Counted from the stretch's first letter, positions 4,109 through 7,672 are shown. The stretch is 25,904 nt of DNA from a virus (IMGVR_UViG_2724679293_000033:1-25904), one strand, 5' to 3'. Notes: generated by a model from the sequence alone, not told the origin. Numbers and translations: made by a program.

Positions 4109-4405
4109 TTATACCTCTGAATCAATATCAACCTGGTGGTGAGCAATGGTTTCAACCATGTACCGGATGTGTTCTGCCATGCGCTCCTGAAACTCAACAT
4201 CGTCATCAAACGCACGGGTAATGGCTTTTTTGCTGGCCCCGTGGCGTTGCAAATGATCGATGCATAGCGATTCAAACAGGTGCTGGGGCAGGCCTTTTTC
4301 CATGTCGTCTGCCAGTTCTGCCTCTTTCTCTTCACGGGCGATCTGCTGGTAGTGACGCGCCCAGCTCTGAGCCTCAAGACGATCCTGAATGTAATAAGCG
4401 TTCAT
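4109..4405 (-). CDS. gam: Gam, RecBCD inhibitor (98-codon form)
   Basis: [39 protein letters not shown]...VDIDSEV matches lambda Gam; the upstream in-frame region reaches a stop 26 codons up with no start, so only the short form is encodable. Confidence 0.9.
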
Positions 4406-4480
4406 GGCTGAACTCCTGAAAATGGCTGTGAAAAAATCGCCCGCGGAATGCCAGGCTGATTCGGAAAACAGGAAAGGGGA

Positions 4481-4771
4481 TTAGTGATTCAGACCGTTGC
4501 CGCGTCCGTCGAGAAAAACTTCCACGAGCAAGTCACGGGTATAAGTGCGCTCAATGCCGCGATGCAGATAAAGTCGTCCGCGTAAATTAGCTGATGCAGT
4601 CCAGGTACCATCTTTGCGTTTGACCAGCATTCCTGGCATGACCGCACCGCGATTAACGGTCTGCGTTCCGTAATGTTGATGAACCATAAAAACTCCTGCC
4701 CGTAAGCTGGGCTGCTGAACATATAAAGACTTCTGCGCGTATTCAGGCGGTGGATGGCCGCCGGTTGTCAT
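4481..4771 (-). CDS. Basic 96-aa protein, first sizeable ORF downstream of the pL region; possibly the C-terminal part of an N-like antiterminator, or a Kil-like protein
   Basis: ORF between the operator-like region and gam; same frame as an upstream 20-codon ORF (4858..4799) encoding arginine-rich MKRTRERRCDQ..., separated by a single TAG. Confidence 0.5.
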   Translation of the reverse strand: MTTGGHPPPEYAQKSLYVQQPSLRAGVFMVHQHYGTQTVNRGAVMPGMLVKRKDGTWTASANLRGRLYLHRGIERTYTRDLLVEVFLDGRGNGLNH

Positions 4772-4974
4772 AACTAAGCCGCCTCGTTGAAGCGACTAAG
4801 GTATGAAATGTTGAGTTGATTTCAGCTGGTCACACCGACGTTCACGCGTCCGTTTCATCCCTCGCACTCCCCGAAGCCTGCTGAAATTCAAGCTGCGGAT
4901 CTAAGCGGTCATCGCAACGGTGAATCAGGTGATTGCCGTATCGTTGTGTTGTTGCGATGAACTCATTTAAAACT

Positions 4975-5045
4975 GTAGTTGTTTTATCGTCAACAACAAA
5001 AGTTGTTTTGTTGGTTGTTTTAGATATAACTGGTTGTATTTAAGA
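4975..5045 (-). promoter_or_regulatory. Candidate oL/pL operator-promoter region
   Basis: Clustered GTTGTT/AACAAC inverted repeats and two TGGTTGT motifs (5012-5018, 5033-5039) that recur in the cI-cro intergenic region; correct position for leftward early promoter. Confidence 0.4.
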
Positions 5046-5137
5046 TGGATTTATTTTGTGACTTGCATCGCATAGCGATAACTGAAGCGAGGTCGTGGTG
5101 GTTTTTTTGAACGGTGTATGATGAGGGGAGGGCAAAA

Positions 5138-5170
5138 GAAAACCCGGCACGGTGGCCGGGTTTAGATGAT
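5138..5170 (-). terminator. Rho-independent terminator ending the cI-side leftward transcript (tImm-like)
   Basis: Perfect 6-bp stem cccggc-acggtg-gccggg at 5143-5160; on the minus-strand transcript followed by UUUUCUUUUG. Confidence 0.6.
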
Positions 5171-5237
5171 TGGTTAAGAGCGAGGGTAATGGGGAATGAA
5201 AAATCGCTTTACCTAATGCAAGGGTGCGAGCATTTTC

Positions 5238-5681
5238 TTAAGCACTAAAGAAAAAGTACATTGATAGCTTATAAAGTCCTGTTCCTGCAGCGATGATTGC
5301 TGGAACACCAAGCAATACCGCAAGCTTTGCGTCTGAAATCTTTCTATCGACAGCATCACTTGATGGCTTGTTTGTTAAGGATTCTTTTATAGAGTCCAGA
5401 CGTGCAAGAATAGTTATCATATTTTTGTCGATAGCTTTAACGTCTGTTTTAAGTTCATCAACGTCTCGTTTGATATGAGCAACATCGGACTCCAGTTTTG
5501 CAACTTTTTCAGGCATGTTATCACTCCCAGACCCACTGCTACCACTTGATTGTAGCATGTCCCATCTTTTTCCAGATATACCTGCTAGCTGGGAAGACGC
5601 ACTGGAGTGCAAACAAAATGATTCTGCCGCCTTTGCAATTTTATCATTTAGGTTTGGAGCTTCGTAATAATCGTGTTTCAT
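5238..5681 (-). CDS. Uncharacterised 147-aa protein with central coiled-coil-like segment and C-terminal hydrophobic helix (predicted membrane anchor)
   Basis: ORF co-oriented with cI; heptad-like EKVAKLESDVAHIKRDVDELKTDVKAIDKNMITILARLDSIKESL followed by LAVLLGVPAIIAAGTGLYKL; AT-rich; no family recognised. Confidence 0.6.
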   Translation of the reverse strand: MKHDYYEAPNLNDKIAKAAESFCLHSSASSQLAGISGKRWDMLQSSGSSGSGSDNMPEKVAKLESDVAHIKRDVDELKTDVKAIDKNMITILARLDSIKESLTNKPSSDAVDRKISDAKLAVLLGVPAIIAAGTGLYKLSMYFFFSA

Positions 5682-5693
5682 AATTAATTACGA

Positions 5694-5957
5694 TTAGTTT
5701 GTTTTAGCTTTGTCATGCTGGTCGCGAATGAAGTCAGCCAATTTAAGCATCAATTCTTCGGGCATTCTAATGGTTGCAATGTTGTACTTTATGTTCTCAA
5801 CATCGTCACTTTCATCAACAGGCCATTCAGTTACATTATGAAAAAAAGAAATTGAACCTAGGCGCTGAGAGCCGTCACCAAACGAAGAGTAGCCAAACGC
5901 GTCGGCGTATGCATCGACACAGTTATTTGATTTTTTAACAAGTGTTTTATTACTCAT
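5694..5957 (-). CDS. Uncharacterised 87-aa acidic protein
   Basis: ORF 12 nt upstream of the 147-aa gene on the same strand, directly downstream of cI; no family recognised. Confidence 0.55.
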   Translation of the reverse strand: MSNKTLVKKSNNCVDAYADAFGYSSFGDGSQRLGSISFFHNVTEWPVDESDDVENIKYNIATIRMPEELMLKLADFIRDQHDKAKTN

Positions 5958-6038
5958 TTTTGCCTTTCCCGTAATGTTATTTTTTATAAGGTATTTTCTT
6001 CAGCGTATTACCCAAAAGCCTCATCAACACGCGGCTGA

Positions 6039-6728
6039 TTATCCGTGTTTTCTGTACGTCTGCGGCATGCTCCCAATAACCTTACCGAATATGAATACCC
6101 GGTTCATCTCGTCTTTCTCGATAGGGTCCCACGGTGAGTAGCTCTTGTTATCAGAGATAACCAGCAGTTTATCCTTCATCATTTGCAGGCGCTTTACATG
6201 GGCGGTGTCGTCGTACAGAAATGCATAGATACCATCACCGTCGAAAGATTTAACCGTGATATCAACGAACAGCAGATCACCTGGTTCGATCGTTCCTGAC
6301 ATGCTGTCACCACGCACGTTAATGATGCGGATATTTTCTGCCTTCCTACCATCGAACATGTGACGAGCATCGTCAAACGAGTACTCAACCGAGCGTAGAA
6401 CTTCTACAAACTCACGGTTGATGACTCCCGGCCCAGCACTGACTTCTATATCAAGAACGTCAATCTTGAAGTATTTGGAATGGCTGACAGTTGATTGTAT
6501 TGGTTGCACTGTACTGTCTGACATATTTCCAACGCCAGAAGATAACCATTCTGCGCGCACACCCAAAGCGTTCGCGATCTCCACGATTTTAGTTGTTTGA
6601 TTAGCTTTCCCTGTTTCGATTTTCTGAATAGCAGCCTGGCTAACCCCGACCAAATCCCCAAGCGCCTTTTGTGTAAGGCCTCGCGCTAATCTGGCTTCTT
6701 TAAGTCTTTCTGAGAGTGTTGTTTTCAT
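6039..6728 (-). CDS. cI: CI-type prophage repressor (HTH_XRE N-domain + LexA/S24-like C-domain)
   Basis: Start at MKTTLSERLKEARLARGLTQKALGDLVGVSQAAIQKIE (helix-turn-helix); C-terminal region with NVRGDSMSGTIEPGDLLFVD and VKRL (Ser/Lys autocleavage dyad context); divergent from cro. Confidence 0.9.
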   Translation of the reverse strand: MKTTLSERLKEARLARGLTQKALGDLVGVSQAAIQKIETGKANQTTKIVEIANALGVRAEWLSSGVGNMSDSTVQPIQSTVSHSKYFKIDVLDIEVSAGPGVINREFVEVLRSVEYSFDDARHMFDGRKAENIRIINVRGDSMSGTIEPGDLLFVDITVKSFDGDGIYAFLYDDTAHVKRLQMMKDKLLVISDNKSYSPWDPIEKDEMNRVFIFGKVIGSMPQTYRKHG

Positions 6729-6832
6729 AGTCCAAATGTACAACCAAGGTTTTATTCCATCAAACGAAAATGGTTGTTGACTAAAAACAACCATGGTTTT
6801 AATCTTGATTCAAATTAACCACGGAGGTTGTT
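6729..6832. promoter_or_regulatory. oR region with divergent pRM (leftward) and pR (rightward)
   Basis: pR: TTGACT (6777-6782), 17-nt spacer, TAATCT (6800-6805). pRM candidate on minus strand: TTGATG-17-TACATT ending ~6 nt before the cI ATG (leaderless-like). TGGTTGT/ACAACCA motifs at 6740-6749, 6771-6779, 6787-6796 plus palindrome AACCATGGTT. Confidence 0.6.
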
Positions 6833-7063
6833 ATGAACCCAGCTATCAAAACAGCGATCAATATCGTTGGTTCACAAAAGAAACTGGGCGCTGCCTGCGA
6901 AGTTTCACAGCAGGCCGTCTATAAGTGGCTTCACAACAAAGCAAAGGTATCCCCTGAACATGTCGGCAGCATTGTTACGGCTACTGGTGGAGTAGTGAAG
7001 GCATACCAGATTCGCCCGGATCTTCCGAAGTTGTTTCCACACACCGAAAAGAACGCAGCTTAA
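6833..7063 (+). CDS. cro: Cro-like HTH repressor
   Basis: 76-aa ORF divergent from cI, preceded by GGAGG; HTH-like segment QKKLGAACEVSQQAVYKWLHNK. Confidence 0.8.
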   Translation: MNPAIKTAINIVGSQKKLGAACEVSQQAVYKWLHNKAKVSPEHVGSIVTATGGVVKAYQIRPDLPKLFPHTEKNAA

Positions 7064-7075
7064 ATTTCCATTTCA

Positions 7076-7087
7076 CGCTCTTTAACA
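7076..7087 (+). promoter_or_regulatory. boxA-like element (candidate nutR)
   Basis: CGCTCTTTAACA just downstream of cro matches the boxA consensus (lambda nut boxA CGCTCTTA; rrn boxA GCTCTTTAACAA); no obvious boxB hairpin found next to it. Confidence 0.4.
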
Positions 7088-7132
7088 ATAAGCAATCAAC
7101 TTAACAGTCAATTCAAACTAAAGGAGTCAATT

Positions 7133-7672
7133 ATGCAACCACTTCCATACCAACAGACTAGCGGATTTAGCCCGACTGCGGTGATAAATCGTTCTCAAAC
7201 AAAACAGGTGCCAGGCCACGAAAAAATCCGTGATGCCGTCCGCGCCTGGTCGGCTGTAGATAATCAGGATGTCGTTGCCACACTCATTGTGAATGAGTAT
7301 CGGGAGCAGGGCGGCGGCACCATCGATTTCCCTGATGATGTCAGCCGTACACGCCAGAAGCTGTTCCGCTTCCTCGATAACAAATTCGATTCTGAAAAAT
7401 ACCGAAATAACGTGCGTGAACTGACCCCGGCAATTCTGGCGGTACTACCGCTGGAATATCGCGGTTACCTGGTTGAGCAGGATAGCTTCATGGCTAGGTT
7501 GGCTGAAATGGAAAAGGAACTCAGTGAGGCAAAACAGGCTGTCATTCTCAACGCACCACGCCACCAGAAACTGAAGGAAATTAGTGAAGGTATTGTGTCG
7601 ATGTTTCGTGTGGACCCAGAGCTGGCTGGTCCATTGATGGCGATGGTTACTACCATGCTGGGGGCGATATGA
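7133..7672 (+). CDS. CII-like/early regulatory protein (179 aa), family uncertain
   Basis: ORF with AAGGAG RBS in the cII position between cro and O; no confident motif match. Confidence 0.5.
   Translation: MQPLPYQQTSGFSPTAVINRSQTKQVPGHEKIRDAVRAWSAVDNQDVVATLIVNEYREQGGGTIDFPDDVSRTRQKLFRFLDNKFDSEKYRNNVRELTPAILAVLPLEYRGYLVEQDSFMARLAEMEKELSEAKQAVILNAPRHQKLKEISEGIVSMFRVDPELAGPLMAMVTTMLGAI

What the first reader, a model, noticed from the sequence alone, without database searches (positions are those of the whole stretch)
5238..5957. Uncharacterised two-gene module in the rexAB slot directly downstream of cI: candidate phage-exclusion system
Seen in sequence: two ORFs (87-aa acidic protein at 5957..5694; 147-aa protein at 5681..5238 with a heptad-like central segment and a C-terminal hydrophobic helix LAVLLGVPAIIAAGTGLYKL) sit on the cI strand, 12 nt apart, starting 81 nt after the cI stop and ending at a clean terminator (5143-5160 hairpin plus U-run on the minus transcript). 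The module is AT-rich relative to its neighbours. Established knowledge: lambda has cI-rexA-rexB-tImm in exactly this arrangement, expressed from pRM in the lysogen, and RexB is a membrane protein; immunity regions of lambdoid prophages are recognised hotspots for exclusion genes. Inference: a soluble sensor/partner plus membrane-anchored effector expressed constitutively in the lysogen. I recognise neither protein as RexA/RexB, SieB or any named defence family.
Basis: partly seen in the sequence, partly recalled or inferred. Interest (0 to 1): 0.82.

Follow-up and report, generated by a model that had tools for sequence, protein, structure and literature searches.

The report
Repressor-linked two-gene prophage membrane cassette
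Two small uncharacterised genes sit just after the prophage repressor gene, where phage lambda keeps its rexAB exclusion genes, and they belong to a widespread, modular cassette family that is a strong but untested candidate for a new anti-phage system.

Summary
Two conserved genes (A, 87 aa; B, 147 aa) lie on the cI strand, between the cI stop and a strong terminator, inside the oL–oR immunity region of an E. coli O26-type lambdoid prophage.

B is tail-anchored. It has a short variable N-terminus, a Gly/Ser linker, a seven-heptad coiled coil, a KPS kink and a C-terminal TM helix. A is a small β-sheet-plus-helix protein.

Neither matches RexA/B, SieA/B, any PADLOC v2 model, or any Pfam or NCBIfam family above threshold. 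Both fall in function-unknown PHROGs.

- **A family, not an orphan.** I found 44 distinct A–B combinations. In at least 30 of 40, the next upstream co-oriented gene is a phage repressor (cI-type HTH/S24, or Mnt/Arc).
- **Named phages carry it.** In HK544 (λ immunity) a family member sits between cI and tImm, where λ has rexAB. VT1-Sakai and ε34 carry one in the same place.
- **Modular pairing.** Partner families pair strictly with B's N-terminal type. The coiled-coil/TM half can be swapped.
- **A cargo slot.** In sister phages the slot holds PDC-M11, a HipA-like pair, other pairs, or nothing.

An exclusion or abortive-infection role is the best reading (about 0.4 for the specific mechanism). 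It rests on context only.

The parts
6039..6728 (-). cI-type repressor gene (HTH_3 + Peptidase_S24). The ORF extends to 6794; the RefSeq start at 6728 gives 229 aa.
   Evidence: Its C-terminal domain is about 100% identical to cI of Lambda_4C10 and PhiR68_2, while the HTH part differs.
5958..6038 (-). 81-nt cI-to-A spacer. No terminator-like site on the minus strand. AAGG Shine-Dalgarno 6 nt before the A start codon.
5694..5957 (-). Gene A: 87-aa soluble, mildly acidic partner protein (phrog_4231). Predicted 3-4-strand sheet plus C-terminal helix. Conserved motif NNCVDAYADxFGYSSFG.
5238..5681 (-). Gene B: 147-aa tail-anchored coiled-coil membrane protein (phrog_3556).
5517..5681 (-). B aa 1-55: variable N-terminal region (helix 11-26) plus Ser/Gly-rich flexible linker. 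This part co-varies with the partner family.
   Evidence: (dN/dS 0.36-0.59)
5370..5519 (-). B aa 55-104: seven-heptad coiled coil (14/14 hydrophobic a/d positions).
5262..5330 (-). B aa 118-140: C-terminal transmembrane helix. It is preceded by the conserved KPS motif, and only about 7 residues follow it.
5140..5163 (-). Rho-independent terminator (tImm-like) that ends the cI-A-B unit. It is also the left boundary of the exchangeable cargo slot (cargo = 5164-6038).
4967..5058 (.). Immunity-specific oL/pL block, with GTTGT-type half-sites.
6735..6832 (.). oR/pRM/pR block between cI and cro, with a GGTTGTT...AACAACC palindrome at 6770-6794.

Best explanation
**What it is.** A-B is one member of a modular, horizontally exchanged two-gene cassette family. 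Temperate phages of Enterobacterales place it immediately downstream of, and co-oriented with, their lysogeny repressor (cI or Mnt). It should therefore be made in the lysogen from the repressor's transcript.

**Shown here.**
- The anatomy of both proteins.
- The slot and its boundaries.
- The repressor linkage across the family.
- The strict pairing of partner families with B's N-terminal type.

**Inferred mechanism.**
- B inserts by its C-terminal helix into the inner membrane and faces the cytoplasm. It oligomerises through its coiled coil.
- It presents its variable N-terminal peptide on a flexible Gly/Ser linker.
- A binds that peptide and holds the complex in a silent state.
- A component of a superinfecting phage is recognised by A, or by the A-B interface.
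- This changes B's oligomeric state so that its TM helices perturb the membrane. That would resemble RexB, and the holin-associated XhlA-type proteins that B distantly resembles.
- The infection is then aborted or excluded.
For: **Position in this window.**
- The module lies inside the immunity region, between cI and a strong terminator.

**The same slot in sister phages.**
- It is bounded by the conserved terminator on the left and the conserved cI 3' end on the right.
- Its contents vary: PADLOC candidate PDC-M11A/B in Lambda_4C10, a HipA-like pair, a 340-aa protein plus a TM protein, another unknown pair, or nothing.

**Family members in named phages.**
- HK544: between λ-type cI and the annotated tImm, where λ has rexAB.
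- VT1-Sakai: cI, an unannotated 93-aa gene, H0053, then the 'terminator for pRM transcript'.
- ε34: repressor, gp45, gp44, then OL/PL.

**P22-like prophages.**
- mnt-A-B have overlapping or abutting reading frames in the immI region, where P22 has mnt-orf59a-sieA (PMC10883804).

**Survey of IMG/VR loci.**
- There are 44 distinct A-B combinations, and 41 have an abutting upstream partner.
- Of 40 co-oriented upstream neighbours: 26 HTH_3, 15 Peptidase_S24, 11 Phage_CI_repr, 4 Arc/RHH.

**Modularity.**
- There are 11 partner clusters, and each pairs strictly with a B N-terminal type.
- The C-terminal coiled-coil/TM half is swapped at the linker in UPF_BP1, Serratia prophages and ε34.
- B's N-terminus evolves 3-5 times faster than its core.

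**Effector hint.**
- There are weak but repeated links of the core to XhlA-type 'hemolysin' families.

**Established knowledge.**
- The cI-to-N interval is a mosaic hotspot that holds the abortive-infection systems rexAB and bstA, which ride the highly expressed repressor transcript (PMC8585504).
Against: - There is no experimental evidence of any kind.
- No homology to any validated defence protein. PADLOC v2 gives nothing for ten family members.
- The family was found only in prophages and phages, and was absent from 72,556 plasmids. Such tight linkage to repressors could instead mean a role in the phage's own switch.
- The XhlA link is below Pfam's threshold and could reflect coiled-coil/TM composition.
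- B has almost no periplasmic part.
- The A-B interaction is inferred from co-variation only.
- B's ribosome-binding site is poor.
- No promoter was detectable by the simple scan.
- I could not read Brenes & Laub 2025 or query current DefenseFinder models. Prior characterisation cannot be excluded.
Confidence: 0.4

Rival explanations
1. Entry-blocking superinfection exclusion. B acts as an oligomeric membrane anchor that concentrates A at the cytoplasmic face of the inner membrane. There the complex interferes with the DNA-delivery machinery of incoming phages, without killing the cell.
For: - In P22-like phages the cassette occupies the immI region where P22 has mnt-orf59a-sieA. [quoted passage not shown]
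- The design looks like a tether: a variable bait peptide on a flexible linker, a coiled-coil stalk and a TM anchor.
- The C-terminal half can be replaced by unrelated coiled-coil/TM segments. This suggests it only needs to anchor and oligomerise.
Against: - Only about 7 residues are periplasmic, and the bulk faces the cytoplasm.
- No similarity to SieA, Imm, or PHROG superinfection-exclusion families.
- The core TM/KPS region is highly conserved (dN/dS 0.09-0.13). That is more than a passive anchor would need.
Confidence: 0.2
2. A toxin-antitoxin-like addiction or stabilisation pair. B is a membrane toxin and A its cognate neutraliser, and together they stabilise the prophage rather than sense phages.
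For: - A small upstream protein and a downstream membrane protein with tight or overlapping reading frames.
- Strict cognate pairing of A with B's N-terminus.
- A HipA-like pair occupies the same slot in PhiR5_1.
Against: - No DNA-binding domain or known antitoxin or toxin fold in either protein.
- The pair depends on the repressor's transcript rather than on an autoregulated promoter of its own.
- It is absent from plasmids, where addiction modules thrive.
- Loss of pRM transcription at induction would unleash the toxin during the phage's own lytic growth.
Confidence: 0.1
3. An accessory of the lysis-lysogeny switch itself, for example modulating induction, repressor level or commitment. RexA has been reported to do this for λ.
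For: - Near-exclusive linkage to repressor genes of two unrelated types, cI and Mnt.
- Found only in phages and prophages.
- RexA is reported to bias the λ switch independently of RexB (abstract of PMC11077077, seen).
Against: - PhiR34_1 carries nothing between the same terminator and its cI-cro-cII region, so the pair is dispensable there.
- The cassette is interchangeable with unrelated cargo.
- The same cassette serves heterologous repressors.
- No DNA- or repressor-binding domain was detected.
Confidence: 0.1
4. A lysis-related (XhlA/holin-accessory) or host-directed lysogenic-conversion function unrelated to other phages.
For: - Weak similarity of the core to XhlA-type 'hemolysin' families.
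- Some relatives sit near tail genes or prophage ends.
Against: - Not in or near the lysis cassette in any locus examined.
- Oriented with and abutting the repressor, so it should be expressed when lysis genes are off.
- Cytoplasm-facing, not surface-exposed.
- XhlA scores are far below threshold (12-25 bits against a cutoff of 34.7).
Confidence: 0.07

Closest known systems
λ RexA/RexB
   Same: - Same genomic slot: between cI and tImm, inside oL-oR.
- In HK544 a family member occupies that slot next to a λ-type cI.
- Also a two-gene unit of a soluble protein plus a membrane protein, presumably expressed from the repressor transcript.
   Different: - No sequence relationship.
- RexA is 279 aa and RexB is a 4-TM protein.
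- Here the partner is 87 aa, and the membrane protein is a single-pass tail-anchored coiled coil.
- No exclusion phenotype is known.
P22 SieA (immI region)
   Same: - The cassette lies downstream of mnt in the immI region of P22-like prophages, where P22 has mnt-orf59a-sieA (PMC10883804).
- Both involve an inner-membrane protein made in lysogens.
   Different: - SieA is a single protein with no similarity to A or B.
- SieA's target (ejection proteins gp16/gp20) is known. Nothing is known here.
BstA (BTP1 and relatives)
   Same: [quoted passage not shown]
   Different: - BstA is a single soluble protein that acts at sites of phage DNA replication and has an aba self-immunity element.
- No homology to A or B.
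XhlA-type phage membrane proteins (Pfam PF10779; phrog_937/1193 'hemolysin')
   Same: - Small size.
- N-terminal coiled coil plus a C-terminal TM helix.
- Weak profile similarity.
   Different: - Scores are below the curated cutoff.
- XhlA genes sit in lysis cassettes of Gram-positive phages.
- They lack the variable N-terminal peptide, the Gly-rich linker and the cognate upstream partner.
Mycobacteriophage Butters gp30/gp31 and S. aureus PdpSau
   Same: Prophage-encoded, lysogen-expressed defences built on a membrane protein. Butters has an interacting partner (PMC7542560). PdpSau causes loss of membrane polarity on infection (PMC10127798).
   Different: - Unrelated sequences and hosts.
- Different genomic positions and topologies. 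PdpSau has an N-terminal anchor and is linked to lysis genes.

Membership tests
λ RexAB exclusion system | Sequence or profile homology to RexA and RexB | tested here: not met
   No RexA/RexB family among Pfam hits at E<=1 or PHROG hits at E<=0.1. PADLOC gave none.
λ RexAB exclusion system | Location between cI and tImm inside the immunity region, on the cI strand | tested here: met
   HK544 has a family member between λ-type cI and the annotated tImm.
λ RexAB exclusion system | Polytopic (4-TM) channel-forming membrane subunit | tested here: not met
   B has one C-terminal hydrophobic segment.
λ RexAB exclusion system | Exclusion of T4 rII and other phages with membrane depolarisation | not testable with these tools
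   Needs plaque and membrane-potential assays.
P22 SieA / SieB superinfection exclusion | Homology to SieA or SieB families | tested here: not met
   No such Pfam or PHROG hits. Only the genomic position downstream of mnt is shared.
XhlA (PF10779) | Score at or above Pfam's gathering threshold (34.7 bits) | tested here: not met
   Window protein: 12.1 bits, E 0.23. Best relative, P0175: 25 bits.
XhlA (PF10779) | Architecture: coiled coil followed by a C-terminal TM helix in a small phage protein | tested here: met
   phrog_1193 at 1.4e-4 and phrog_937 at 1.2e-3 to 1.3e-6.
Known or candidate defence systems in PADLOC-DB v2 | Significant match of either protein to any model | tested here: not met
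   B gave only coiled-coil noise (E>=0.004). A gave nothing. Ten other family members gave nothing.
PHROG phrog_4231 (A) and phrog_3556 (B), function unknown | Profile match | tested here: met
   7e-54 and 1.5e-58.
Repressor-linked A-B cassette family (defined here) | B = variable N-terminus, Gly/Ser-rich linker, coiled coil, K(K)PS motif, C-terminal TM | tested here: met
Repressor-linked A-B cassette family (defined here) | Abutting upstream partner gene whose family pairs with B's N-terminal type | tested here: met
   41 of 44 combinations have a partner ORF ending next to the B start (gaps -56 to +29 nt in 40, 95 nt in one). Pairing table.
Repressor-linked A-B cassette family (defined here) | Immediately downstream of and co-oriented with a lysogeny repressor | tested here: met
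   Window. At least 30 of 40 non-redundant loci. HK544, VT1-Sakai and ε34.
Type II toxin-antitoxin | Antitoxin with a DNA-binding domain, a recognisable toxin fold, and an autoregulated operon | tested here: inconclusive

The most novel reading that the evidence does not exclude
The cassette is a previously unrecognised, plug-and-play immune family of temperate phages. In this reading, interchangeable small recognition proteins (at least four major partner families) dock onto a matching N-terminal peptide of a tail-anchored, XhlA/holin-like coiled-coil effector. The whole unit is hard-wired to the lysogeny repressor's transcript. Different prophages could then swap either the sensor half or the membrane half by recombination at the Gly-rich linker.
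Probability: 0.3. Interest if true: 0.78.

Novelty: new variant of a known kind. Interest (0 to 1): 0.62.

Why it matters
- **It would answer an old question.** If the cassette excludes phages, it would explain what many lambdoid and P22-like prophages carry in place of rexAB and sieA. These include the Stx1 prophage of O157:H7 Sakai and O26/O103 EHEC prophages.
- **It would add a new effector type.** A tail-anchored coiled coil with modular adapters is not among known bacterial immune effectors.
- **It is directly testable.** HK544 has λ immunity but carries this family instead of rexAB, so standard λ genetics can be used.
- **It bears on applied work.** About 3.6% of complete E. coli genomes carry this exact allele. 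That matters for phage-therapy host-range prediction in EHEC lineages.

Tried and rejected
**Homology searches that found nothing useful.**
- Pfam, NCBIfam and PADLOC gave only sub-threshold coiled-coil hits for B and nothing for A.
- PDB sequence profiles gave no relatives.

**Structure.**
- The B model is a low-confidence set of helices (pLDDT 59), so I ran no fold search on it.
- The afdb50 library was unavailable.

**Literature.**
- No paper mentions the protein or locus accessions I searched: WP_012565042, WP_000066829, ECO26_0579/0580, ECs2991/2992.
- The DefensePredictor supplements lack the two WP accessions.
- The Tai paper is unrelated.
- Brenes & Laub 2025 and Degnan et al. 2007 are not held.

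**Readings rejected.**
- Lipoprotein reading of A: 'KKSNNC' has no hydrophobic h-region, so it is not a lipobox (sequence).
- Fusion idea, prompted by the 276-position phrog_3556 profile: A does not match that profile.
- The '91-aa' short form of B (P0014) is a truncated gene call. The full ORF is 146 aa.
- A structured leader RNA between pL and kil: z-score is only -1.0.

**Limit of a tool.**
- The simple promoter scan found no sigma-70 site anywhere in 4400-7200, not even pR or pL. It is therefore uninformative about an internal promoter.

Full report
**Source.** The window is 100% identical over the tested stretch to the argU-integrated lambdoid prophage of E. coli O26:H11 str. 11368 and many O26/O103 EHEC genomes. 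RefSeq calls the two genes 'hypothetical protein': WP_000066829.1 (87 aa) and WP_012565042.1 (147 aa). Of 5,426 complete E. coli genomes, 198 carry the whole module.

**Observation.**
- ORFs 5694..5957(-) (A, 87 aa) and 5238..5681(-) (B, 147 aa) exist as described. They are 12 nt apart, and A starts 81 nt after the cI stop.
- cI has HTH_3 plus Peptidase_S24.
- A 9-bp, 6-GC hairpin with a T-run at 5163-5140(-) follows B. It folds far better than shuffles (z = -3.4).
- No terminator-like site lies between cI and A on that strand.
- The module's GC is 0.38-0.40, against 0.51-0.53 in bet/gam and 0.44-0.47 in cI.
- Both ORFs are real genes. dN/dS against homologues is 0.05-0.09 for A and 0.16-0.25 for B.

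**Proteins.**
- B has a short predicted helix (aa 11-26) and a disordered Ser/Gly-rich linker.
- A continuous helix spans aa 56-103, with 14 of 14 hydrophobic a/d positions.
- A KPS break follows, then a C-terminal helix containing the only hydrophobic segment (KD maximum 1.8 at aa 118).
- There is no signal peptide and only about 7 residues follow the TM helix. I therefore infer a tail-anchored, cytoplasm-facing topology.
- A (pI 4.96) is modelled at pLDDT 78 as a 3-4-strand sheet plus a C-terminal helix.
- Pfam, NCBIfam, PADLOC v2 and PDB profiles give no family above threshold.
- PHROG places A in phrog_4231 and B in phrog_3556, both of unknown function.
- B has weak links to XhlA-type 'hemolysin' PHROGs.

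**The slot.**
- Aligning the window with Lambda_4C10 and PhiR68_2 shows a conserved kil-side flank.
- Next comes a roughly 95-nt block (4967-5058) that differs exactly when the cI HTH domain differs, which marks it as oL/pL.
- A conserved 100 nt then ends at the terminator. Beyond it the sequences diverge completely until the conserved cI C-terminal domain.
- Fifteen phages share the left flank, and homology stops at the terminator in each.
- Contents of the slot:
  - A-B in the window.
  - PADLOC candidate PDC-M11A/B in Lambda_4C10.
  - A same-sized pair in IdasGreatGrand, which I did not scan.
  - A 341 + 149 aa pair in PhiR68_2.
  - A 340-aa protein plus a 'transmembrane protein' in Perceval.
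  - A HipA-like pair in PhiR5_1.
  - Nothing in PhiR34_1.
- This is the cI-to-N mosaic hotspot that holds rexAB in λ and bstA in BTP1 (PMC8585504).

**The family.**
- B's conserved core is the C-terminal 90 residues. The N-termini vary.
- An exhaustive profile search finds 56 clusters at E<=1e-10. They share one plan: a variable N-terminus, a Gly-rich linker (GGGNGGGGDM), the coiled coil LEARVAKLESDV..., a KKPS motif and a TM helix.
- Individual contexts:
  - E. coli: cI, an 89-aa gene, then a 146-aa gene.
  - Two lambdoids: cII-cro | cI, a 150- or 140-aa gene, B, then N.
  - P22-like prophages: mnt-A-B with an ATGA overlap and a 2-nt gap, divergent from arc-ant.
  - Salmonella phage UPF_BP1: mnt-A-B'.
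  - Serratia prophages: mnt-A-B''.
  - P22 itself has mnt-orf59a-sieA in that region (PMC10883804).
  - A few relatives lie near tail genes or prophage ends.
- An IMG/VR scan gave 80 loci and 44 distinct A-B combinations.
- Of these, 41 have an abutting upstream partner.
- Of 40 co-oriented next-upstream genes, 26 carry HTH_3, 15 Peptidase_S24, 11 Phage_CI_repr and 4 Arc-type RHH.
- Named phages also carry the family:
  - HK544 (λ immunity): cI, c104 (93 aa), c103 (183 aa), tImm, oL/pL, nutL, N.
  - VT1-Sakai: cI, an unannotated 93-aa ORF, H0053, then the 'terminator for pRM transcript'.
  - ε34: repressor, gp45, gp44, then OL/PL.
- All of these genes are annotated as hypothetical.
- The pair is rare in sequenced phage isolates. 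The window allele occurs only in UPF_BP1. It is absent from plasmids.

**Modularity.**
- Partner proteins fall into 11 clusters. Four are major:
  - 134-187 aa, β-rich, phrog_5893.
  - 93-106 aa, phrog_12039.
  - 87-113 aa, phrog_4231, which is the window's type.
  - 112-119 aa, Cys-rich, phrog_4293.
- Each pairs with its own B N-terminal type.
- Homology between the cI and mnt contexts begins about 25 nt before A's ATG and ends at B's stop. The pair therefore moves as one unit.
- In UPF_BP1, the Serratia prophages and ε34, the partner and the B N-terminus are retained, but the coiled-coil/TM half is replaced. The breakpoint is at the linker.
- B's N-terminal 55 codons have dN/dS 0.36-0.59, against 0.09-0.13 for the core.

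**Interpretation.**
- Shown here: the anatomy, the slot, the repressor linkage and the cognate pairing.
- Inferred: co-transcription with the repressor, A binding to B's N-terminal peptide, and function.
- The best reading is a lysogen-expressed, membrane-associated exclusion module. In it A, or the A-B interface, senses an invader, and B's oligomeric TM assembly perturbs the membrane.
- Confidence is about 0.4 for that mechanism and about 0.6 for some anti-phage role.
- Rivals are an entry-blocking tether (0.2), a TA-like pair (0.1), a switch accessory (0.1), and a lysis or conversion role (0.07).
- It is not a member of the RexAB, SieA/B or XhlA families by sequence.

**Novelty.**
- The slot and the concept are known, and the genes have long been catalogued as hypotheticals.
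- What I found in none of the databases or papers available to me is the recognition of a large, modular, repressor-coupled family, and its candidacy as a defence system.
- I could not check Brenes & Laub 2025 or current DefenseFinder models.

Noticed in passing
window 10348-10532 (+), with the downstream gene at about 10691-11299: Rfam finds an isrK Hfq-binding sRNA (10348-10420) and a C4 antisense RNA (10445-10532). They lie just upstream of a 'P22AR C-terminal domain' antirepressor gene. This looks like a P1/P7-style c4-ant secondary immunity module in the nin region.
   Followed up: partly
window about 11599-12395 (+): RefSeq annotates a HEPN-domain protein followed by an overlapping small hypothetical gene. 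It may be a second TA- or defence-like pair in the same prophage (coordinates converted from NC_013361).
   Followed up: no
window 4772-4960: This prophage has no N gene or annotated nut site. About 190 nt of non-coding leader between pL and kil is conserved at more than 90% in 15 phages. Its predicted fold is not unusual (z = -1.0). How the leftward operon is antiterminated is unclear.
   Followed up: partly
window 6728-6794: The longest cI ORF starts at 6794, inside the oR palindrome ATGGTTGTTGACTAAAAACAACCAT. RefSeq starts cI at 6728. The 251-aa ORF is probably an over-extension.
   Followed up: partly
L108 2716-2997 (VT1-Sakai) and L012 4478-4732: Two genes are missing from public annotation. 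One is the 93-aa partner gene between cI and H0053 in VT1-Sakai. The other is an 84-aa Mnt-like RHH gene upstream of the cassette in P22-like prophages.
   Followed up: yes
L016 2562-3978, L020 4295-5868, L021 4267-5817, L017 3059-4514: Alternative cargos fill the same cI-terminator slot: PDC-M11A/B (M11B has an ASCH domain), a HipA-like kinase pair, a 340-aa protein plus a 168-aa TM protein (phrog_3482/16807), and a 341 + 149 aa pair with no family at all.
   Followed up: partly
L047 1022-1761: In one IMG/VR locus the ORF upstream of B is itself a 99-aa XhlA-like coiled-coil/TM protein, so two such proteins sit in tandem.
   Followed up: no
window 5880-5930 (A residues 10-27): A's most conserved stretch is the motif NNCVDAYADxFGYSSFG, with many invariant residues. 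It is also the least confidently modelled part, at pLDDT about 60. This pattern fits a binding motif that orders only in a complex.
   Followed up: no
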